DNA from: a virus
IMG/VR virus record: IMGVR_UViG_3300037247_001044
Coordinates: 6,831 to 70,830 of that record
Reading direction: 5' to 3' (one strand)
Length of the DNA: 64,000 nucleotides
The notes below the pieces were generated by a model. The model had not been told where the DNA came from, made no database searches, and worked only from the letters and a program-made list of their open reading frames with translations. The translations under genes and the position numbers were made by a program. Positions within the stretch are counted from its first letter, which is position 1. Every line of letters starts with the position of its first letter. Positions 13,433 to 45,315 of the stretch are shown here, in pieces.

Positions 13433-13585
13433 TCAGTCGTCTTCCCATTCGTTATCCTCGTCGTCATCGTCATCCCAGTCGTCGTCCTCGTCGTCATCCT
13501 CCCAGTCGTCATCGTCGTATCGGCCGACGTCACCTGGCTTGATACGACTCTGACGGACGATCCCGAATCCATCTGCAACGGTCAT
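13433..13585 (-). CDS. 50-aa highly acidic peptide
   Basis: Not in ORF track: MTVADGFGIVRQSRIKPGDVGRYDDDDWEDDDEDDDWDDDDDEDNEWEDD, with GGAG SD. Confidence 0.6.
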   Translation of the reverse strand: MTVADGFGIVRQSRIKPGDVGRYDDDDWEDDDEDDDWDDDDDEDNEWEDD

Positions 13586-36649: not shown

Positions 36650-38161
36650 TCATACGCGAGCACTCCTGTTTCCGTTGCGGCCAGCAGTCGCCAGCCGATT
36701 CCTGCCTTGTGTTGGCGGTGTTGGTAGTGGAGGCGGTTCGGCGGGCGCAGATGCGCCGCTACCAAAGTGAGCCTCGAATAAAGCGGCCCTCATCTCGTCG
36801 GGTGTGATGCCATAGTCCTCAGCCATGCGGGGCAATTCGTCCTCAAAATCCAGACCGCCTGCCGCGAAGACTCGCCGGAGAACAGCAACGCCTGTCGACA
36901 GATTGGTCTTGTTGGCATTGGCGTGTTTGACCTCGTCGATGACCGGCTTCTCGGGCCAGTCCCAACCGTGATTCGGTGCCGGATCGGCCGGCACACGCCA
37001 ACCAAACCGGAGAACAGCCTCGGCGAACCACACCTCGAAGAGCGGATCGAGCACGTCCTCTTCAATATCCTGTTGCTCAACATCGACCGAAACAAAATAG
37101 GTCAAATGATCGAGCTTGCCGCCGGAGAACGAATAGCCGCTGGAGTCGGCCCTTGCGATGTTGTTCGGCATGTTGAGCGGCCGCGCCTGCTCGCCTGCTT
37201 GCTCGCGAATGAATTCTGTGTAGTTTGAAGACGGTTGTTCCGGCTTCGGCTGCCATCCGTCGTAGCCAGCCGGGAAGGCCGTCATCATCCCTTTCTCCAT
37301 CGGATACGTGGAGAAGGGAAGAGCGATGTTGGGTTCGATGCTGGGATCAGCCTGAGTTTTCAGAAAGATCGAAAAGTTAGCGATATTCTCGGCACCTACG
37401 ATAACTGCCTCGCGGTACCGCCTGCCATTCGCGTAGCAGTTAAGCGACGGGGCGACCTCAGAAACGCCGCGATGCTGACCGGCTCGGTCTTCGCGGAAAA
37501 GATGAAGCATGAATCGGGCGGGCACCCGTTCCACTTCTTGCCCCAGCCCGCTCCACTGACTGCCCGGATGCTGCTTGAGCACGTCGTAGAAAAGCACGTT
37601 GCCAAATTCGTCAAACTCGATGCCGTCAATCTTGTTCGGCTCATTGGTCCCAAGGTACGGCGTCGTCACCTGTTCGCATTCGATCGGTTTCAAGCCGAGC
37701 TTGACGCGGTGCCGCATCCTGGGATTCTGCGTAATGATGATGAACGGGTCGCCGTCTGAGACCTTTGCTTTGATGGTGGTGCGAAGCTTCTTTGGCAGTT
37801 TGACTTCCTTTGCCCAGCTCTTCCACGCGGCCTCAACCATCGAATTGAATCCGGGGCTTCCGGTTTGCATTCGCAACTTGGGGCCCCGGCCAACCACATA
37901 ATTTGCCTGGGTGAGCTGGATGCCCTTGCCTAGACCGTTGTTGGCGAATTCGTATCGGGCCCGCTGTGAGATCCGTTGGCGGACGGTCTTGGAGTTGGCG
38001 GAGTCGGCGTCAAGAGCATCAGCGGCAAGCCAGTGCCGGGTGTTCATGCCGGCAAGATCCGCGGCATCGTAGCTGCCACGGATCGGTCGGGGCGTGTCCA
38101 TGTCGACCGTCACCGGCTGGTGGCGAGAGAACGCGCGGCGGATTGCGGCAATCATGCCCAT
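36650..38161 (-). CDS. portal protein, lambda family
   Basis: YDAA, RAR...NN, GIEFDEFG, RAGQHRGVS, DSSGYSFSGG. Confidence 0.93.
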   Translation of the reverse strand: MGMIAAIRRAFSRHQPVTVDMDTPRPIRGSYDAADLAGMNTRHWLAADALDADSANSKTVRQRISQRARYEFANNGLGKGIQLTQANYVVGRGPKLRMQTGSPGFNSMVEAAWKSWAKEVKLPKKLRTTIKAKVSDGDPFIIITQNPRMRHRVKLGLKPIECEQVTTPYLGTNEPNKIDGIEFDEFGNVLFYDVLKQHPGSQWSGLGQEVERVPARFMLHLFREDRAGQHRGVSEVAPSLNCYANGRRYREAVIVGAENIANFSIFLKTQADPSIEPNIALPFSTYPMEKGMMTAFPAGYDGWQPKPEQPSSNYTEFIREQAGEQARPLNMPNNIARADSSGYSFSGGKLDHLTYFVSVDVEQQDIEEDVLDPLFEVWFAEAVLRFGWRVPADPAPNHGWDWPEKPVIDEVKHANANKTNLSTGVAVLRRVFAAGGLDFEDELPRMAEDYGITPDEMRAALFEAHFGSGASAPAEPPPLPTPPTQGRNRLATAGRNGNRSARV

Positions 38162-38364
38162 CAGCCGGCCCCCGGGGCTTTGAGCCTCACGGTCCGGAGA
38201 CCGAAGTGATTCTTTGAGGCAGCGGTCTGGGCCGATTCGTGGCGTTGGACTGCGAGCAACTGGTCAAGGTCGTGAGACTCAACCCGCCCCTTGTCCGTGC
38301 TTACGACCTGCGGGTTGAGTGCGGCTCGTTCGAGCGCGTCGGCTATGGTTGTCGGCGTTGCCAT
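38161..38364 (-). CDS. gpW-like head completion protein
   Basis: 67 aa immediately before a lambda-type portal. Confidence 0.6.
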   Translation of the reverse strand: MATPTTIADALERAALNPQVVSTDKGRVESHDLDQLLAVQRHESAQTAASKNHFGLRTVRLKAPGAG

Positions 38365-38491
38365 GAATGCATGGTAACGCGGCCAAGAGACGCATCAAGG
38401 GAAGAGTGGGCAAGTTGCTATATATGGGAGTTTTGGCCAGATACGGCCAGATTTCTGGGGCAGTTGCCGGATGATAGAGGCCAGCGCATGA

Positions 38492-38524
38492 GTAAGCCCG
38501 GGCACTTGCGGCACCCGGGCTTAC
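38492..38524 (-). terminator. hairpin closing the repeat array
   Basis: Perfect 11-bp inverted repeat GTAAGCCCGGG / CCCGGGCTTAC; no U-tract, so role is inferred. Confidence 0.5.
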
Positions 38525-38534
38525 CTTGAAAGTA

Positions 38535-39070
38535 GGGCACTGTAGCAATCGGTCTCAGTGCGAAGTTCGCCTTGGGCTATGCGGCAATGCCGTTGTCGGT
38601 TTCACGTAAGCCGTCGCCTTGTCTAGGGCAACTCTTGACTCGGTTTCATCTTGCCTGTCGCCGTGGGTTGGGGCAACTCATTCTTCGGTTTCAAACTTAT
38701 CCTCGCCTTGGATTGGGGCGGTGGAGCTTTCGGTTTCATTTGACCCGTCGCCTTGGGATTGGGCTCGGGGGTAATCGGTTTCAATTTTCCGCTCGCCTTG
38801 GGTTAAGGGGCATCGCGTCAATCGGTTTCACGTTCTGGCTCGCCTTGGGCTGGGGCACCGCTGACTTCGGTTTCACAAGAGCAGTCGCCTTGGGTTGAGG
38901 CAATGCTCGGTTCGGTTTCACGAAGAGTATCGCCTTGGATCGGGACACGGGTGCTCTCGGTTTCACATGTCGACTCGCCTTGGATTTTGGCATTATTGCA
39001 GTCGGTTTCACGGGGTCGGTCGCCTTGGGTTGGGGGCAAGCGGCGACTCGGTTTCACTTGGCCTTTCGCC
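38535..39070 (-). ncRNA. TIGR-like dual-spacer array, distal segment (12 units)
   Basis: Minus-strand unit TGCCCCAACCCAAGGCGA-N9-TGAAACCGA-N9; loop repeats at 38549, 38596, 38640, 38685, 38730, 38775, 38822, 38867, 38912, 38957, 39002, 39048. Confidence 0.85.
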
Positions 39071-39078
39071 ATATCTCA

Positions 39079-40155
39079 TCAACCACCGGTCCACGGTTCC
39101 GGTTCAATCCCATCGACTTGAAACACCCATTCCGTCCACAACTCACGCAAGAGCCTTTTCCCCATCAACAGCATCCCGTGGAGGTGAGGCCGCATCACCA
39201 TCACACCACGGCCTGAGCATTTTTTGCACCCGTCTCCGCTCTTGGCCGTGCCGGTGCCTTTGCACGTTGTACAGTCCGGCGTCCACTCCGGGTCTTTCCG
39301 GGCAATCGCTTCGGCTTTCTTCGTAGCATACCGTCGGGCATACGGGCCAGCGTAAATTGCCCCATGCGTCTCAGTTGCCTTTCGGGCCCCGTTGCCTTTC
39401 AGGAGCGATTCGGAAATCACGAACATCACCGACCGGCGCCGTGGACAGTAACCCAGTTCCTCCCACTCGGCCGCAGACAATCCGCCGTTGTGCTTCTTCC
39501 GGCTTCGCCACGTCGAGGGCATGAACGTCTTGCCCTTCGACTCAAACGGGGCGCAGCCCATCCGGCGCCACAGCTTCCCGGGGTTGTCGTAGTTCGATAG
39601 GTCGCCCACTTCGCCGATGATGATGGCCAGCGATAGCCAGCCGAATCCACGCTGATCGGTTAGTGCCATCCACTTGGCTACGGGGAGTTGTTTGGACAGC
39701 TTTCCCATTTCCCGTTCGTAGGCTTTTTCCGTGGCGTGAAAGCCTTCGATCGAGACGGAGCAGGCTTGAATCAGGGGGGCCAGGGCATCTCTGGGCCCGG
39801 TTTCAATGGCGCTCTCGCCCTGGACCTCCCTGATAAGTTTCTTCGCATCGCCAAACCACCTGGCACGCTCGTCTTCCTCCATGCCGGCGTGATACCCGCT
39901 CGCCGTGGCCACCGTGGCAGTCAAACGGTTGTCGATCATGATCCGCGACTTTTGCGTGGTGACCCGCTGGCGTTGGAGTTCACGGATATCGGCAACAAGA
40001 GAAGGCACGGGGGTAGTCGGTTTCACCGGATCATTCGCCTTCTTTTTCGGCACTTCCGTTTTCGGTTTCAGACAGGGGATCGCCTTGTCTTTTGGCACGG
40101 CATCCCTCGGTTTCAGTGGGGGTTTCGCCATGGGTGTTTCAGTTACGGTTGCCAT
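39079..40155 (-). CDS. TasA-like Nop/IS110-related RNA-binding protein without nuclease domain, with CxxCxGxG Zn-finger insertion
   Basis: IRELQRQR..QKSRIMIDNRL coiled coil; RGFGWLSLAIIIGEVGDLSNYDNPGKLWRRMGCAP (IS110/Nop helix-hairpin-helix); no DEDD RuvC or HNH; embedded in array; GAAAGG SD before MATVTE. Confidence 0.8.
   Translation of the reverse strand: MATVTETPMAKPPLKPRDAVPKDKAIPCLKPKTEVPKKKANDPVKPTTPVPSLVADIRELQRQRVTTQKSRIMIDNRLTATVATASGYHAGMEEDERARWFGDAKKLIREVQGESAIETGPRDALAPLIQACSVSIEGFHATEKAYEREMGKLSKQLPVAKWMALTDQRGFGWLSLAIIIGEVGDLSNYDNPGKLWRRMGCAPFESKGKTFMPSTWRSRKKHNGGLSAAEWEELGYCPRRRSVMFVISESLLKGNGARKATETHGAIYAGPYARRYATKKAEAIARKDPEWTPDCTTCKGTGTAKSGDGCKKCSGRGVMVMRPHLHGMLLMGKRLLRELWTEWVFQVDGIEPEPWTGG
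40004..40129 (-). repeat. three array units inside the Tas-like CDS
   Basis: TCGGTTTCA at 40017, 40062, 40107 with exact 9-nt spacers and 45-bp period. Confidence 0.85.
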
Positions 40156-40180
40156 GATGGGCCTTTCGTGGGGTTGAGGG

Positions 40181-40668
40181 GGGACAGTAGGTCTCTCGGT
40201 TTCACGGGGGGGATCGCCCTGGGTTGGGGGCACAACGGTTTTCGGTTTCAGCGTATTGATCGCCTTGTGTTAGGGCAGGCTGGGGTTCGGTTTCACCCAC
40301 GAAATCGCCTTGGTTGGGGGCACCGGAACTTTCGGTTTCGTTCTTGTTGTCGCCTTGAGCAGGGGCATTACTATGGTCGGTTTCATTGCTCCAATCGCCA
40401 TGGTTGAAGGCAATGTCTCATTCGGTTTCAAGTCCGTCCTCGCCTTGGATTGGGGCATCAGCTCGATCGGTTTCACGGTGGCTCTCGCCTTGGGTCGGGC
40501 ACGTGTCTAATCGGTTTCACGTCCGTCCTCGCCTTGGGATGGGGCATTGACCGGGTCGGTTTCACTATTCATCTCGCCTTTGGTTAGGGCACGGGGGTTT
40601 TCGGTTTCATTTCCTTGGTCGCCTTGGATTGGGGCAAAGGCTATCTCGGTTTCACCCACTCAATCGCC
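40181..40668 (-). ncRNA. TIGR-like dual-spacer array, middle segment (11 units)
   Basis: Loop repeats at 40196, 40242, 40287, 40332, 40377, 40422, 40467, 40511, 40556, 40601, 40646. Confidence 0.85.
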
Positions 40669-40670
40669 CA

Positions 40671-41168
40671 CTATTTCTTCACCTTCTGAAACACCTTCGT
40701 CAACTTCGCCAGCGTAAACTTCTGCCGAACGGTCGCCTCGCCCTTTACCGTCTTCGCAAGCTCACGACATAGTCGCGTGTTGAACTCGTGACCGGACGCC
40801 CGCTCGGATTCCGCGTCGGCCGTGGCCACCAGTTCGTCGCCCGTGAGCATCCCGAGAGTTTTGCCCGCGATCAAGTAGGCCATCACGCCTTGAGCAATTC
40901 GGCCAGACGCTTCCCCGGCCGTAACCTTTGCCGGTCCACCGTAATCGCCATGGGCGGTTCGCATCTCTACGTTGATATGATGCCGGGTGTCGTGGATCAG
41001 CTTTGCGATTGCCCGGCGGATCAGCTCGTCTTTCAATGTATCGAACCACTGGACCTTGTTTGCCTTCTTCAGTACGGCCTCGGTCGCGTCCTCGATACTG
41101 TCGGGGTGCTTGTCAACGGCCGCGTCTACTAGCTTTTGCAAACGTTCCATTGCTTTCGGTGATTCCAT
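40671..41168 (-). CDS. array-embedded hypothetical protein (165 aa, helical)
   Basis: AAGGAG SD; flanked on both sides by array units. Confidence 0.75.
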   Translation of the reverse strand: MESPKAMERLQKLVDAAVDKHPDSIEDATEAVLKKANKVQWFDTLKDELIRRAIAKLIHDTRHHINVEMRTAHGDYGGPAKVTAGEASGRIAQGVMAYLIAGKTLGMLTGDELVATADAESERASGHEFNTRLCRELAKTVKGEATVRQKFTLAKLTKVFQKVKK

Positions 41169-41174
41169 TGAGTT

Positions 41175-41589
41175 CTCCTTGGGTCAGGGGGCACTTCCAT
41201 TTTCGGTTTCACCCCCGAAATCGCCTTGGGTTAGGGCACCTAGTCATTCGGTTTCACACTGGGCTTCGCCTTGGATAGGGGCAACCTGACAATCGGTTTC
41301 ACGCTTGCGTTCGCCTTGGGTTGGGGCACCGGGCTTGTCGGTTTCATATTCGCACTCGCCTAGAGTTAAGGCAATGTACCACTCGGTTTCACTCTCTTGC
41401 TCGCCTTTGGGTTGGGGCAACGCATCACTCGGTTTCATGATGAGCATCGCCTTGAGTGGGTGGCACTTTCTTTTTCGGTTTCAGCTCGGTGATCGCCTTG
41501 GGCTAGGGCACACCCTACCTCGGTTTCAGCGGGTATTTCGCCTTGATTTATGCGGCAGTGGGACACTCGGTTTCACAGCTATATTCGCC
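41175..41589 (-). ncRNA. TIGR-like dual-spacer array, promoter-proximal segment (9 units)
   Basis: Loop repeats at about 41203, 41248, 41293, 41338, 41383, 41429, 41475, 41520, 41567. Confidence 0.85.
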
Positions 41590-41693
41590 GCGCAAGCCTT
41601 CCCTTCGGTTTCCACGAAAGGCCGCCCATAAAAGGGCAAGAATTTCCCGAAGGGAAGGGGTATTGTTCATAGAGCCAATCGTGGATAACTGCC

Positions 41694-41722
41694 ACCTTAC
41701 CACCGGTATTACCGATTGTCAA
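41694..41722 (-). promoter_or_regulatory. sigma70 promoter for the array operon
   Basis: TTGACA-17 bp-TAAGGT with extended -10 TG, about 100 bp upstream of the first unit. Confidence 0.7.
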
Positions 41723-41765
41723 CCCCGAAATTCAAAGTGGCCCATTTCCTACCGAATTCCGATGG

Positions 41766-42017
41766 TCATGTCTTGCTGAGGGGTTTGCCGGCAATAGCTT
41801 CACGTCTTTCACGAATGCACTGCTTTGGGATATACATGATTCCGCTAAGCTGCCCGGTATGCTCGTCCCGGGATGATGCAATACACAACACATCGTCGGT
41901 TTCTTGTGCCAAATGGCCGACGGTCGTGATCTTGGCGACTCGCATTTCCAAGCTGTCTTTCTCGGTCCACCCATCATCGGATCGTGAATCCAGCCAATCA
42001 ACTATTTCAAGTGACAT
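41766..42017 (-). CDS. conserved phage hypothetical protein
   Basis: VDWLDS...GW...TVGHL...IPKQCI pattern. Confidence 0.65.
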   Translation of the reverse strand: MSLEIVDWLDSRSDDGWTEKDSLEMRVAKITTVGHLAQETDDVLCIASSRDEHTGQLSGIMYIPKQCIRERREAIAGKPLSKT

Positions 42018-42018
42018 T

Positions 42019-42225
42019 TTATTTCTTCCTCGGAATTTCCTCCGTCCGAAGCAACGACTGCCCGCAGTGCCGACATACCCGGCGGCGATGACGGTTCCCG
42101 CTGGAAACTCGGTAGGTGGAGGTCACCCGCCAATCGCGACAGCCGCAACGCGGGCAAGCCCACGGATCAGGATTCGCTTCGTCCGCCATCTCCTGCAAGG
42201 ATTTGGGGGGCTTCGCGTCTGTCAT
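42019..42225 (-). CDS. Zn-ribbon protein (NrdR/Ogr-like)
   Basis: CPRCG...V.ST....RRRVCRHCG...TEE. Confidence 0.65.
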   Translation of the reverse strand: MTDAKPPKSLQEMADEANPDPWACPRCGCRDWRVTSTYRVSSGNRHRRRVCRHCGQSLLRTEEIPRKK

Positions 42226-42235
42226 CTTTTGGCAC

Positions 42236-42490
42236 TTAGTCCTTATCGGACGGAATGATTCGACCGAGTTGCAGCCACCGTCGAAAGTGAAAGTAAATCC
42301 CCTGATTATCGTCGACCTGCTCCCCCCGAACGTACACTTTTCCATCGTCATCGAACCGGATCATTTCGCGCCCATCTGCCAGCAGGAACACAATGCTCCC
42401 CGATGGCTCGCCGTTGCCTGGGGAGAACGTCACGTTTCCACCAGCGGGAATGGTCGTCACGTTTCCACCATTGCCATTAGCCTCTGACAT
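42236..42490 (-). CDS. hypothetical protein
   Basis: AAGGAG SD, MSEANG start. Confidence 0.5.
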   Translation of the reverse strand: MSEANGNGGNVTTIPAGGNVTFSPGNGEPSGSIVFLLADGREMIRFDDDGKVYVRGEQVDDNQGIYFHFRRWLQLGRIIPSDKD

Positions 42491-42773
42491 ATCAAATCTC
42501 CTTTTGTTATTGCCCCGCCATTTCCGCAAGACTCAGTCACGGCTTCACCACTCGGTCTACGTATCTTGCGATTCCGGAAACCGCTCATACTTCGTGCAGT
42601 CAGTAAAGAGCAACACACACCCTTTGCCTTTGCCCATCCACTTATAGCCACATCTGTAACAGGGGTGGCGTGCATCTACACATATCTCCGACCAGAGGCA
42701 AAGCCGTATCTTGTTCCGTAGTTCATGTTTTCCTGTTGACGGGCCGTCCATGTATTTAGTTTCACGCTTTTCG

Positions 42774-44864
42774 TTATCGCTTGGCCATTTCCGCAAGACT
42801 CATGGGCTTCTTGGTTGCTTTTTCTGCCGATGGAATTGACGATAGCCGCGACAACGACGCGCCAACACGCCCTAACGCCAAGGCATCCAAGTAGTGGTTT
42901 GGACCATTCGGTGGCAGGAATTTCGCCTTCGCCGGGTCCCACTGTTCGCTGATGACATGAGCCCCAAGTTCCCGCTCTTCCTCCAGCGAACTTCGCAACT
43001 GGCGGCCATCGGGACCAGTCCGCGGAGCGTGTAGCCCGAGGCTGCCGGGCGTACCGAAGTCGGCCTTGAACGCTTCCTGTACGCGGGTCTTGTAAACGTC
43101 AGGGTTGACGTCGCACAGCGGCGACCGCGTCCTGCGGTCGATGTGACACTCGTCGAACAGACGGATGCCGATGTGCGGCAACGGCCGACGGTATTTTCCG
43201 AACCCTTTGCACGGCAAGCAGCGTCCAAAACCAACCTCGGAAGCAAACACCGTCACCGGCTGTACCGACCAGCCTTCGTTTTTCCATCCACTATCAAGCA
43301 GCGTCCAATCGGGAAACCAGGCCGATGCTTCCACATCCAGGTCTTCCCGCCATGGCTTGTGGGTCTGAATCCATTGCCACCAATCGCGGAGCCCTTCCAG
43401 GACAGCATTCTCGCAAGCCTCGGGGCGTTGGCCCGCCGTTGCGAATCGCCAGAAATGGTACTCGACAATCGAACCGACGCAGTGTTCGTCCCACGCGACC
43501 GCCACCCAATGCGCCCCAAGCTTTTTGATATCGACGCCGACTGTCAACCGGACCGTCTCCGGTGGCACGACTCGGTAATCAAAGCCACTCCGGGAATCGC
43601 GAATCTGTTCTGACGTCAGATCGAGCAAGCCGAGTTCGTCAGGCGGGTCGTTGTCGAACTCCGTCGCCGTGTTGGCTGGGCCAATCCTCGCAACCCAGCC
43701 GTAATAATGCTCCAACGCCGACACCTCGACCGTTCCACCCTCCGGCCGGATTCGGTGGTCGTAACGGTGCTGATTCGCGACCTCGCCGCCTTCGTCCATT
43801 TCGTCGCGACGAGCCAGGTAGAACTCGTGTGCTATTCGCGGTGTCGGGGCCTCGCGCACATCGCCTTGCTCGGCCACCCACCCCTGCTTGCACAAGTTGA
43901 CGAATTCAGCCCACGCCGTCTGGTTGGTTGGCGGCTTCAACAGGAACCGCATCCGCCGTCCACGGAAAGATGGGTACTTGTCCCGATCGGTCAGTTGATA
44001 CGCAACAGAACACCGGCTCGGGCAAGTACAGAGCACAAGCCGCGATACGGGATTGTGCTGCGAGCCAAGAGCCGCGATGCCGCGATTGATCTTCCGTAGT
44101 AGTTTGGCAGCTTGAACAGGATTATGAATCGTCTCTTCCGTGTCGGGATCGTCAATAATCACCGCTCTCGGTCGACGGTTTTTGATCCGCAGTCCCCGCA
44201 GAGCAGAATCAAGACCTTGTGCGATCACGATAGCACCAGCCGAGGGCGAACCCGGTACGTTTGGAAATACAAGCCGATCGCCCGTCCAATGGAAACTGCT
44301 CGGCGCCAACTCGTATCGCTCGCCGTTGCCGAACCGCTCGCCCTCGACCACTTGGGTCTTCGCCCGCTGGACGGTGCCCTCCAGGGCCCGAACCGGATCG
44401 CAGACCTCCGGGTAATACTGGAAGATTTCGTCATTCTCCCCGATGGCCATCCTGATCGTGTCTAGGATGTCGGCCGCGTTCTTCGCCGTCGCCCCGAGGA
44501 TGACCCATAGGTCTTGCCCGCCACCTTGCAGGATCGCCTTGAGCGTCAGGGCAATTGCTAGGGACGTCTTTCCTTCGCCCCTCGATGCCGCCGTCGCCTG
44601 ATCGCCGCCCTCCGACAACACTCCAGAAAAGTCGGCCACCATCTGCCGCTGCTGAGGCTCAAGGGGATAGTACGTGTCTGGACTGAATGCCGGCCAGTAG
44701 GACTCGATCCAGAGTTCATCATCGGCCTCGCGTCGGAGTCGTTCGGCCAGCTCTTCCGGTGTCAGCGAGCGGACGGTAACCAATCGGCTCTCAAGTCGCT
44801 GTGTGCGTTTCCGAAGTGCGTCGTAGTCGCGTTCTGACATGGCGCCAGTCGGCTCCTTGGCCAT
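42774..44864 (-). CDS. terminase large subunit (GpA-like nuclease domain)
   Basis: Walker A ASRGEGKT, Walker B VIIDDP, TVGVDI, LLDSG, PCKG, NHYLDA. Confidence 0.9.
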   Translation of the reverse strand: MAKEPTGAMSERDYDALRKRTQRLESRLVTVRSLTPEELAERLRREADDELWIESYWPAFSPDTYYPLEPQQRQMVADFSGVLSEGGDQATAASRGEGKTSLAIALTLKAILQGGGQDLWVILGATAKNAADILDTIRMAIGENDEIFQYYPEVCDPVRALEGTVQRAKTQVVEGERFGNGERYELAPSSFHWTGDRLVFPNVPGSPSAGAIVIAQGLDSALRGLRIKNRRPRAVIIDDPDTEETIHNPVQAAKLLRKINRGIAALGSQHNPVSRLVLCTCPSRCSVAYQLTDRDKYPSFRGRRMRFLLKPPTNQTAWAEFVNLCKQGWVAEQGDVREAPTPRIAHEFYLARRDEMDEGGEVANQHRYDHRIRPEGGTVEVSALEHYYGWVARIGPANTATEFDNDPPDELGLLDLTSEQIRDSRSGFDYRVVPPETVRLTVGVDIKKLGAHWVAVAWDEHCVGSIVEYHFWRFATAGQRPEACENAVLEGLRDWWQWIQTHKPWREDLDVEASAWFPDWTLLDSGWKNEGWSVQPVTVFASEVGFGRCLPCKGFGKYRRPLPHIGIRLFDECHIDRRTRSPLCDVNPDVYKTRVQEAFKADFGTPGSLGLHAPRTGPDGRQLRSSLEEERELGAHVISEQWDPAKAKFLPPNGPNHYLDALALGRVGASLSRLSSIPSAEKATKKPMSLAEMAKR

Positions 44865-45315
44865 TCGTGGCTCTTGTGATCGGCGCAACAAAAAACAGCA
44901 CGCCCAATGGTTCCAGCACTGGACTGCTGTTCTTGTTGCGCCTCCGTGTCCACTCGCTGGCCGGCAAGTGGTCGGTGGCCCCGATAAATTGTTAGCTGTT
45001 CGCCTTGAGGATAATCGGCGCCCGTTCCTTCACCCGCCGAAGACTCTTGATCCGGTCTCTGATTTTCACGGCTCGGCTGCTAGGATTAGGGGCACTCGAC
45101 GGGGGGGCTATTGTACTTCCAGTAAACCCTTTCCGCCCACGGTTGCATTGATAGCTGATTCTTAGTCCTCATCTCAGTGCCTCGTATTGCGCGCCACAAG
45201 ATCCACATGGCCTCGCGTATAGTCGGAGGCTGGCACCAGAACGCCCCGTACCCAAAGCCTTGCTCTTCGAGCTGTACGGCGATACCGTGGGCCTGCGTCA
45301 GATCGAGCTTCAGCT

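What the first reader, a model, noticed from the sequence alone, without database searches (positions are those of the whole stretch)
40004..40155. Guide units embedded in-frame in the tas-like coding sequence
Seen: three intact units lie downstream of the likely ATG (40155, GAAAGG SD). The 45-bp period equals 15 codons and gives the repeats LKPRDAVPKDKA / LKPKTEVPKKKA / VKPTTPVP. The edge-repeat loops here have diverged to Lys-rich codons while the CGA/TG and GCC/GGC anchors are kept. Inference: the mRNA is dual-use, so processing or binding of these guides would cut or occlude the protein's own message, giving negative feedback.
Basis: partly seen in the sequence, partly recalled or inferred. 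Interest (0 to 1): 0.8.

Follow-up and report, generated by a model that had tools for sequence, protein, structure and literature searches.

The report
Guide-RNA units inside phage tas gene
A phage gene for an RNA-guided DNA-binding protein (TasA) carries three complete copies of its own guide-RNA repeat unit in frame at its 5' end, a layout first described in a 2026 preprint and possibly a means of self-limiting expression, though that is untested.

Summary
The minus strand of 38513-41590 is a phage TIGR-Tas locus. It holds three 45-bp arrays (loop repeat TGAAACCGA, 9-nt spacer, 18-nt edge repeat TGCC-N9-GGCGA, 9-nt spacer), a conserved 165-aa gene and a nuclease-less tasA-like gene (39079-40155). 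Inside that ORF, 40004-40129 holds three architecture-complete units in frame. A covariance model of 28 array units scores them 34.7, 26.3 and 20.7 bits (background maximum 12.8). They encode residues 9-51 of a predicted disordered tail.

Homologues keep an M[AS]T start and carry 0-5 such units. Repeat-coded residues are as conserved as the core. Spacer-coded residues are randomised. The residue after KP almost always has a codon that can start with A, which points to conservation at the nucleotide level.

Translation from 40155 is likely but not proven. An open frame alone is weak evidence, because 14 of 28 non-coding units are also translatable.

The feedback idea is untested here; both tools for sequencing runs were unavailable or unused. 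In-frame intragenic tigRNAs in disordered regions of tas were reported by Xu et al. (bioRxiv, September 2026). This is therefore a new member of a known kind.

The parts
40004..40129 (-). Embedded TIGR mini-array inside the tas ORF. [quoted passage not shown]
40072..40116 (-). Embedded unit 1 (loop repeat, spacer, edge repeat with A-rich loop, spacer). Encodes LKPRDAVPKDKAIPC.
   Evidence: Covariance model 34.7 bits, E 5e-8
40027..40071 (-). Embedded unit 2. Encodes LKPKTEVPKKKANDP.
   Evidence: Covariance model 26.3 bits, E 1e-5
39981..40026 (-). Embedded unit 3. Its loop repeat, spacer and box C are intact; the 3' half of the edge repeat is replaced by conserved coding sequence (VKPTTPVPSLVADIR). 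Its GTG (40024-40026) is an alternative start codon.
   Evidence: Covariance model 20.7 bits
39079..40155 (-). tasA-like gene, 358 aa. It has a disordered tail (residues 1-49), long helices, a Nop-type domain, and a CxxCxGxG zinc knuckle at about residues 295-317. No nuclease domain was found.
40162..40167 (-). Shine-Dalgarno-like GAAAGG, 6 nt before the ATG at 40155. It lies in a degenerate array unit.
   Evidence: Shine-Dalgarno use in this phage
40158..40668 (-). TIGR array A2: 10 canonical units plus one degenerate unit (40158-40205, 17 bits). It runs from the stop codon of the 165-aa gene up to the tas start.
40671..41168 (-). Conserved 165-aa helical partner gene lying between arrays A1 and A2.
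41169..41590 (-). TIGR array A1 (about 9 units). Its last edge repeat reads AAGGAGA, a Shine-Dalgarno sequence 5 nt before the ATG of the 165-aa gene.
38513..39070 (-). TIGR array A3 (about 12 units). [quoted passage not shown]

Best explanation
The 5' end of this phage's tasA gene is a live piece of TIGR array.

Shown:
- 40004-40129 holds three units with the full architecture of the flanking arrays: box D, 9-nt spacer, loop repeat, 9-nt spacer, box C. [quoted passage not shown]
- The units are in frame with a Tas protein whose folded part starts right after them.

Inferred, likely (about 0.75): translation starts at the conserved MATV codon (40155). The units are then read as a disordered Lys/Pro-rich N-terminal tail.

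Inferred (about 0.6): the repeat parts are kept at the RNA level, so TasA dimers still recognise these units on the tas message. That message is probably the same long transcript as the pre-tigRNA of array A2.

Inferred, weakest (about 0.35): binding over the units, or cleavage in the two embedded edge repeats, occludes the start region or separates it from the ORF. Abundant TasA would then lower its own synthesis while releasing three more guides.
For: Units are real and complete: covariance-model scores are far above background, and the exact GGCGA-N9-TGAAACCGA-N9-TG architecture is present.

The pattern along the DNA is not a simple decay from the array into the gene. Scores run 43.1 bits (40206-40251), 17.0 (40158-40205, holds the Shine-Dalgarno-like site), no hit (40117-40157, holds the ATG), then 34.7, 26.3 and 20.7.

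The protein is a Tas: Foldseek against TasH 9vzx_B gives E 7.5e-5 and TM 0.64 on the target; TasR 9mty_A gives E 2.7e-4. Residues 1-49 are coil with block pLDDT of 39-74, and a helix starts at residue 50.

Start codon:
- The 16 closest homologues all contain an M[AST][TR] start. In one of them (P0003) the gene call begins further upstream, in frame.
- L060 has MATV directly after the array, an in-frame stop just upstream, and synonymous changes in three conserved codons.
- L061 has GGAG 5 nt before its ATG. Its array period is 44, but its embedded loop repeats are 54 apart.
- In four related loci, 5 of 5 spacings between embedded loop repeats are multiples of 3 and differ from the local array period (which repeats count as embedded was my post hoc choice).

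RNA-level constraint in homologues:
- The residue after KP can have an A-initial codon in 38 of 42 cases, against 316 of 815 at other tail positions (Fisher p 1e-11). After K[AT] it is 30 of 36.
- In the six closest homologues, repeat-coded residues are identical in 99 of 120 cells, spacer-coded residues in 5 of 90, and the core in 1560 of 1830.

No terminator-like site lies on the minus strand between the arrays and tas.

Precedent: intragenic tigRNAs of BlTasA were seen by small-RNA sequencing, and TasA acts as an RNA-guided repressor (Xu et al. preprint, sections 5, 11 and 12).
Against:
- An open frame is weak evidence. Of 28 non-coding units, 14 are translatable in the same frame, and gene callers often run tas ORFs into arrays.
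- Unit number varies down to zero in close homologues (P0010, P0015), so any feedback is dispensable.
- In more distant loci the embedded units have lengths unlike their arrays (54 against 44; 39, 45, 63, 75). That fits translated relics better than working guides there.
- The embedded edge loops differ from all 29 array edges and may no longer be cut.
- Conservation of the repeat parts could come from recombination with the arrays rather than from selection.
- The GAAAGG site is a weak Shine-Dalgarno sequence.
- MFE folding of the units shows no structure beyond shuffles (z -0.8 to -1.3).
- No self-target of the embedded guides was found.
Confidence: 0.5

Rival explanations
1. Translated relic. 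An upstream shift of the start codon captured the gene-proximal end of array A2. The units are read as a tolerated, disordered tail and have no RNA-level role. Their repeat parts look conserved because they are young or are homogenised by recombination with the flanking arrays.
For: - The number of units ranges from 0 to 5 among close homologues.
- In L061, L015, L023 and L004 the embedded units have lengths that differ from the local array period but keep the frame.
- The tail is predicted to be disordered.
- The third unit has already lost its 3' half to coding sequence.
Against: - In this window the two full units keep the exact geometry: 9-nt spacers, an 18-nt edge and both boxes.
- They score higher than the two units upstream of them.
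- In homologues whose spacer-coded residues are randomised, the nucleotide after KP and after KA is still A-compatible in 38 of 42 and 30 of 36 cases.
Confidence: 0.3
2. Not coding. Translation starts at the GTG of the last loop repeat (40026) or nearby. Units 1 and 2 are then simply the last units of array A2, or a 5' leader, and the long ORF is an artefact of a stop-free repeat with a 3n period.
For: - Half of the non-coding units are translatable in this frame.
- 11 of 120 homologues are called with an MKP/VKP start in the last loop repeat.
- L001 starts at such an ATG.
- Arrays of this window yield many spurious ORFs.
Against: - The conserved M[AS]TV..P start lies upstream of a variable number of units and shows synonymous change in L060.
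- GGAG precedes the upstream ATG in L061.
- Embedded spacings are 3n where the array period is not.
- The two units between A2 and the embedded set have been remodelled into a Shine-Dalgarno-like site plus ATG.
- Even on this reading, the third unit overlaps the start codon, so the message stays dual-use.
Confidence: 0.15
3. Protein-level function. The Lys/Pro-rich tail (KPxxxVPKKKA) is selected as a basic, disordered nucleic-acid-binding arm of a DNA-binding repressor. The RNA motifs are incidental. This reading can coexist with the others.
For: - The embedded edge loops are more A-rich (Lys codons) than all 29 array edges.
- PKKKA / PKDKA recur in P0001-P0007.
- The Xu et al. preprint notes extended disordered N-terminal regions in TasA clades.
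Against: - Homologues at about 65-70% identity lack the tail (P0010, P0015).
- The residues after KP and KA are chemically diverse (K, I, T, N, R, S) and share only an A-initial codon. That points to the nucleotide, not the amino acid.
Confidence: 0.2

Closest known systems
Intragenic tigRNAs in tas coding sequences (Xu et al., bioRxiv 10.64898/2026.09.09.750476, Sept 2026; sections 5, 10, 11, 13 and passages read)
   Same: TIGR units lie inside the tas CDS, here at the 5' end. They do not break the frame and they map to a disordered protein region. The authors suggest a link between tigRNA maturation and Tas translation. The effector is a TasA without a nuclease.
   Different: [quoted passage not shown] Here both repeats are conserved in sequence (a dual-repeat type) with a 45-nt unit.
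- Its tested case (BlTasA) has the unit in the wedge loop, not in an N-terminal tail.
- No RNA data exist for this locus.
- The word 'autoregul' does not occur in that text.
- Its supplements and the TIGRSafari resource could not be seen, so this very locus may already be listed there.
Dual-repeat TIGR arrays and TasA (Faure et al. 2025, Science, PMC12045711; passages read)
   Same: - Alternating edge and loop repeats with two 9-nt spacers per unit.
- Repeats start with UG and end with C-G/C-A.
- Arrays lie upstream and downstream of a Nop-domain gene.
[quoted passage not shown]
- The locus is phage-borne.
   Different: - The unit is 45 nt, not 36.
- The edge repeat is 18 nt with a GCC/GGC stem and a 9-nt loop, instead of 8-12 nt.
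- No terminator-like site follows the arrays.
tasParB-tasA operons (Faure et al. [quoted passage not shown]
   Same: There is an upstream partner gene, with arrays before it, between it and tas, and after tas.
   Different: The 165-aa partner shows no ParB match in Pfam. Its model has no PDB fold match at E <= 0.001, the best being 1.5.
RNA-binding proteins that repress their own mRNA through a copy of their RNA ligand (archaeal L7Ae and k-turns, ribosomal proteins; recalled, no call), and the coding link of RGG motifs and G-quadruplexes (PMC11789052; search listing and abstract only)
   Same: It would work like these: the protein's own message carries its binding motif.
   Different: Here the motif is a complete guide unit that could also be released as a working guide. 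Nothing has been tested.

Membership tests
TIGR array (Faure et al. 2025) | Two alternating repeats with two spacers per unit | tested here: met
   Alignment of 28 units shows an invariant GAAACCGA and TGCC...GGCGA separated by variable stretches. The three embedded units have the same layout.
TIGR array (Faure et al. 2025) | Spacers of about 9 nt | tested here: met
   33 units fit GGCGA-N9-TGAAACCGA-N9-TG, including all 3 embedded units.
TIGR array (Faure et al. 2025) | Both repeats start with UG and end with C-C/G-A (box C/D) | tested here: met
   TG and CGA are invariant or at least 90% conserved in both repeats. They are kept in embedded units 1 and 2. In unit 3 the last CGA is part of GCCGA.
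TIGR array (Faure et al. 2025) | [quoted passage not shown] | tested here: met
   The embedded set runs from GGCGA at 40125-40129 to TGCC at 40004-40007. A2 and A3 start the same way.
TIGR array (Faure et al. 2025) | 36-nt unit with repeats of 8-12 nt | tested here: not met
   The period is 45 and the edge repeat is 18 nt. This makes it a long-edge variant, intermediate towards stem-loop arrays.
TIGR array (Faure et al. 2025) | Processed into unit-length RNAs bound by Tas | not testable with these tools
Tas protein, TasA class | Nop-type RNA-binding domain fold | tested here: met
   Foldseek top 10 hits are all TasH or TasR chains (E 7.5e-5 to 2.2e-3), followed by IS621 and Nop5. The model has mean pLDDT 89.7. 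There is no sequence-level PDB hit.
Tas protein, TasA class | No nuclease domain | tested here: met
   Pfam gives only weak zinc-knuckle and Transposase_20 hits. The region before the helices is a 49-residue coil.
Tas protein, TasA class | Y/H dyad on a C-terminal loop for self-processing (dual-repeat systems) | not tested
   Y272 is invariant and H324/H326 are at least 90% conserved, but no residue-level superposition on TasH was made.
Intragenic tigRNA (Xu et al. 2026) | Units inside the tas CDS, in frame | tested here: inconclusive
   The units are in frame with the ORF from 40155. The start codon is inferred from conservation, not measured.
Intragenic tigRNA (Xu et al. 2026) | Units correspond to a disordered region of the protein | tested here: met
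   Residues 1-49 have no secondary structure and low pLDDT.
tasParB-tasA operon | Partner gene is ParB-like | tested here: not met
   No ParB family is found in Pfam at E <= 1. Foldseek gives 0 hits at E <= 0.001. The HHpred route used by the authors was not available.

The most novel reading that the evidence does not exclude
The embedded units are working guides, and the tas message is a self-consuming precursor. TasA cuts the two edge repeats that lie inside its own ORF, releasing three extra tigRNAs and destroying the template, so the protein level is set by guide demand. In addition, the tail's unit number (0-5 among close relatives) and its randomised spacer-coded residues would mean that whatever process renews TIGR spacers also rewrites the N-terminus of the effector protein.
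Probability: 0.2. Interest if true: 0.7.

Novelty: new member of a known kind. Interest (0 to 1): 0.4.

Why it matters
How tas expression and tigRNA maturation are coupled is an open point; the 2026 preprint raises it without a test. How TIGR arrays gain or lose units is also open.

This clade offers a natural series: close homologues with 0 to 5 in-frame units behind one conserved start. The locus also has canonical 45-nt geometry, which is compatible with the reading frame. That makes both a feedback test and a start-site test simple to design.

For annotation, gene callers will often mis-place tas starts, because these arrays are open in two frames.

Tried and rejected
- Pfam, PHROGs and a PDB sequence search did not name the protein. 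They gave weak zinc-knuckle and Transposase_20 hits and a PHROG 'transposase'. The fold search did name it.
- Rfam found nothing relevant. The only match was mir-1249, E 0.43, far below its gathering score.
- MFE folding of three embedded and three array units gave z-scores from -1.3 to +1.0, so it is uninformative.
- The sigma-70 scan found 0 promoter-like sites in 38000-42400. All 10 terminator-like sites were on the plus strand.
- Self-targets: 33 units, 2 geometries and gaps of 0-4 were searched against the 70.8-kb genome with at most 2 mismatches. This gave 4 hits, all with exactly 2 mismatches and none from an embedded unit. One hit fell inside array A2 itself. My own estimate of the chance expectation is about 1. 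The target geometry was guessed, because the papers' text did not state it.
- Close relatives at the DNA level were scarce. The viral scan gave 59 loci, none above 42% identity. The metagenome scan gave 4 loci, two of them useful (L060, L061). The genome scan gave 4 loci at 29-32% identity.
- One search used tblastn start coordinates that were not always in frame, so its N-terminal read-outs are unreliable. One search replaced it.
- In one search the string search for L060 failed and printed a wrong region. One search replaced it.
- The 165-aa partner as a ParB: rejected. The protein atlas gave no usable hit.
TIGRSafari and the supplementary tables may already list this locus.

Full report
What is there.

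The window is most of a 70.8-kb virus record that CheckV estimates to be 94% complete. Nearly all of its genes lie on the minus strand. Between the large terminase (42774-44891) and the portal (36650-38161) the minus strand carries 45-bp repeats.

An alignment of 28 units gives the consensus (N)TGAAACCGA - N8 - (N)TGCC-CCAACCCAA-GGCGA - N8. That is a 9-nt repeat and an 18-nt repeat, both starting with TG and ending with CGA, separated by two 9-nt variable stretches.

This matches the TIGR array of Faure et al. 2025 (PMC12045711, passages read). [quoted passage not shown] Here the short A-rich repeat is the loop repeat and the long one is the edge repeat.

There are three arrays:
- A1, about 41169-41590.
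- A2, 40158-40668.
- A3, 38513-39070.

Two genes lie between them:
- A 165-aa ORF (40671-41168).
- A 358-aa ORF (39079-40155).

The 358-aa protein is a Tas protein.

Sequence libraries do not name it. An AlphaFold2 model built on 103 homologues has mean pLDDT 89.7. Its ten best Foldseek matches in the PDB are TasH and TasR chains, with E from 7.5e-5 to 2.2e-3 and TM up to 0.64 on the target. IS621 recombinase and Nop5 follow.

It has no nuclease domain, so it is TasA-like. It also has a CxxCxGxG zinc knuckle that some homologues lack.

The observation.

Three more loop repeats lie inside this ORF at 40115, 40070 and 40025, spaced 45 and 45. A pattern search for the full architecture (GGCGA, 9 nt, TGAAACCGA, 9 nt, TG) finds 33 units in the locus, and all three embedded units are among them.

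[quoted passage not shown] Faure et al. describe arrays as beginning and ending this way, and A2 and A3 begin this way here.

A covariance model built only from the 28 array units gave these scores:
- Training units: 38.9-53 bits.
- Two array-end units not used in training: 35.0 and 31.8.
- The three embedded units: 34.7, 26.3 and 20.7.
- Best hit elsewhere in 64 kb: 12.8.

The profile along the DNA is not a simple decay from the array into the gene:
- 40206-40251: 43.1 bits.
- 40158-40205, which holds the GAAAGG: 17.0 bits.
- 40117-40157, which holds the ATG: no hit.
- The three embedded units: 34.7, 26.3 and 20.7 bits.

The two complete embedded edge repeats keep TGCC, GGCGA and the 9-nt loop. 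They have 7 A of 9, against a mean of 3.79 and a maximum of 6 in the 29 array edges.

Is it translated?

The open frame alone says little. In the same frame, 14 of 28 non-coding units are of 3n length and stop-free. The arrays also produce many spurious ORFs. Other evidence is stronger.

First, the start is conserved. Among the 146 homologues found (120 listed), the 16 closest all contain a start of the form M[AST][TR]. In P0003 it lies inside a longer in-frame call. Ten of them read MATV/MSTV-x-[ED]-x-P. Between that start and the conserved core (LPSLvAeIRELQRQR) they carry from 0 to 5 units of the form xKPxxxxPxxKAxxx.

Second, locus L060 has no unit. Its MATV follows the array directly, an in-frame stop lies just upstream, and three conserved codons differ synonymously from the window.

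Third, locus L061 has an array period of 44 (7 spacings), which would break a reading frame. Its two embedded loop repeats are nevertheless 54 apart, and GGAG lies 5 nt before its ATG.

Fourth, I looked at four related loci in which loop repeats lie after a plausible start. All 5 spacings are multiples of 3: 75, 54, 45, 39 and 63. None equals the local array period. By contrast, repeats that merely lie in an open stretch upstream of the likely start rotate through the frames: 59 and 46 in L001, 52 three times in L010, and 55, 57 and 59 in L012. Which repeats count as 'after the start' was my own reading of the peptides, made post hoc.

Fifth, Shine-Dalgarno-like 4-mers precede 19 of 56 minus-strand ORFs of at least 150 aa, against 13% of random positions. 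The AAGG before 40155 is therefore meaningful but weak.

I put translation from 40155 at about 0.75.

The main alternative is the GTG of the third loop repeat (40026). Eleven of 120 homologues are called with an MKP/VKP start at that place. Conserved residues begin at about P46 and the first helix at residue 50, so a start downstream of 40004 is excluded.

Are the units kept as RNA?

In the six closest homologues (70-86% identity), identity to the window's protein is:
- Repeat-coded tail residues: 99 of 120 cells.
- Spacer-coded tail residues: 5 of 90 cells.
- Core: 1560 of 1830 cells.

The residue after KP can have an A-initial codon (I, M, T, N, K, S, R) in 38 of 42 cases in P0002-P0022. At other tail positions the figure is 316 of 815 (Fisher p 1e-11). 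After K[AT] it is 30 of 36. Over P0002-P0120 the figure after KP is 76 of 87.

These residues are chemically mixed and share only the first base of their codon. That is what conservation of AAACCGA and GGCGA as nucleotides predicts. It holds whether or not the tails are translated. It could also reflect recombination with the arrays rather than selection.

Against a working-guide role in the wider family, embedded units in L061, L015, L023 and L004 have lengths unlike their own arrays. In the window the geometry is exactly canonical.

Mechanism.

No terminator-like site lies on the minus strand anywhere from A1 to A3. The last edge repeat of A1 has become AAGGAGA, 5 nt before the ATG of the 165-aa gene. 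In L061 the last edge repeat has become GGAGA before tas.

The genes therefore seem to be read from the array transcript. If so, the tas message carries three complete TasA binding units just after its start codon.

In dual-repeat systems the Tas protein is needed for processing. TasH cuts within the edge repeat by a Y/H dyad (PMC13421893 passages; Xu et al. section 10). If this TasA, or a host RNase guided by it, does the same, then cuts at 40080-40097 and 40035-40052 would sever the start from the ORF. Binding alone would sit on codons 9-51.

The A-rich embedded edge loops might block cutting and leave binding only, or they might serve the protein as Lys codons. I cannot tell which. None of this is measured. 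I rate feedback at about 0.35.

What is known.

Xu et al. (bioRxiv 10.64898/2026.09.09.750476, 11 Sept 2026; outline, sections 5, 10, 11 and 13, and passages read) make these statements:
- Such units typically fall in disordered regions.
- Small-RNA sequencing shows BlTasA tigRNAs embedded in the coding sequence.
- TasA clades have extended disordered N-terminal regions.
- TasA acts as an RNA-guided transcriptional repressor.

The kind is therefore already described.

In the searched library, 'intragenic tigRNA' occurs in that preprint alone, and 'autoregul' does not occur in it. The Asymmetric-targeting preprint has no mention of intragenic units.

What this case adds:
- A sequence-conserved, long-edge (45-nt) array type.
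- A 5'-terminal mini-array with canonical ends.
- A homologue series with 0-5 units.
- The mosaic conservation pattern.

Limits.

No expression data could be had. Close homologues' DNA could not be fetched. Supplements were not seen.

Noticed in passing
window 40671-41168 (-): The 165-aa ORF between arrays A1 and A2 is a conserved partner of this tas clade. tblastn finds it just upstream of tas, on the same strand, in 21 of 67 other loci held. It is absent mainly from the distant loci. Its model is all-helical (mean pLDDT 80.8, pTM 0.47) and has no PDB fold match (best E 1.5). Pfam, PHROGs and the protein atlas give no family. It does not look like the TasParB partner described by Faure et al.
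   Followed up: partly
window 41174-41180 (-); L061 about 478-484: The last edge repeat of an array is changed from AAGGCGA to AAGGAGA (window, before the 165-aa gene) or to GGAGA (L061, before tas). This gives a Shine-Dalgarno site 5 nt before the ATG. The array ends appear to supply the ribosome-binding sites of the downstream genes.
   Followed up: partly
window 38559-41590 (-), spacers listed: By eye, several 9-nt spacers are near-twins (8 of 9 bases):
- spacer A of units 40519 and 40430;
- spacer A of units 41211 and 40295;
- spacer B of embedded unit 3 and of unit 38783;
- spacer B of embedded unit 2 and of unit 41211.
This would fit unit duplication or exchange between the arrays and the embedded set.
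   Followed up: no
window 38500-41600, both strands: The arrays are stop-free in two of three frames on the minus strand and give many spurious ORFs of 50-110 aa on both strands. In homologues, gene calls often run into arrays in either frame, giving KP-type or ETE/ETD-type tails.
   Followed up: partly
window 39079-40155 (-), residues about 295-317: A CxxCxGxG-type zinc knuckle is inserted near the C-terminal end of the Nop-type domain. It is present in the close homologues and missing in P0032, P0035, P0037 and P0040. Whether it replaces the Y/H processing loop of dual-repeat Tas proteins was not examined.
   Followed up: no
window 36650-44891 (-): The whole TIGR-tas locus sits inside the head-morphogenesis block, between the large terminase (42774-44891) plus small ORFs and the portal (36650-38161). 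It is on the same strand as these genes.
   Followed up: no
window 13437-13518: A degenerate tandem repeat based on TCGTCA (periods 3 to 30), probably an acidic low-complexity coding stretch on the minus strand.
   Followed up: no
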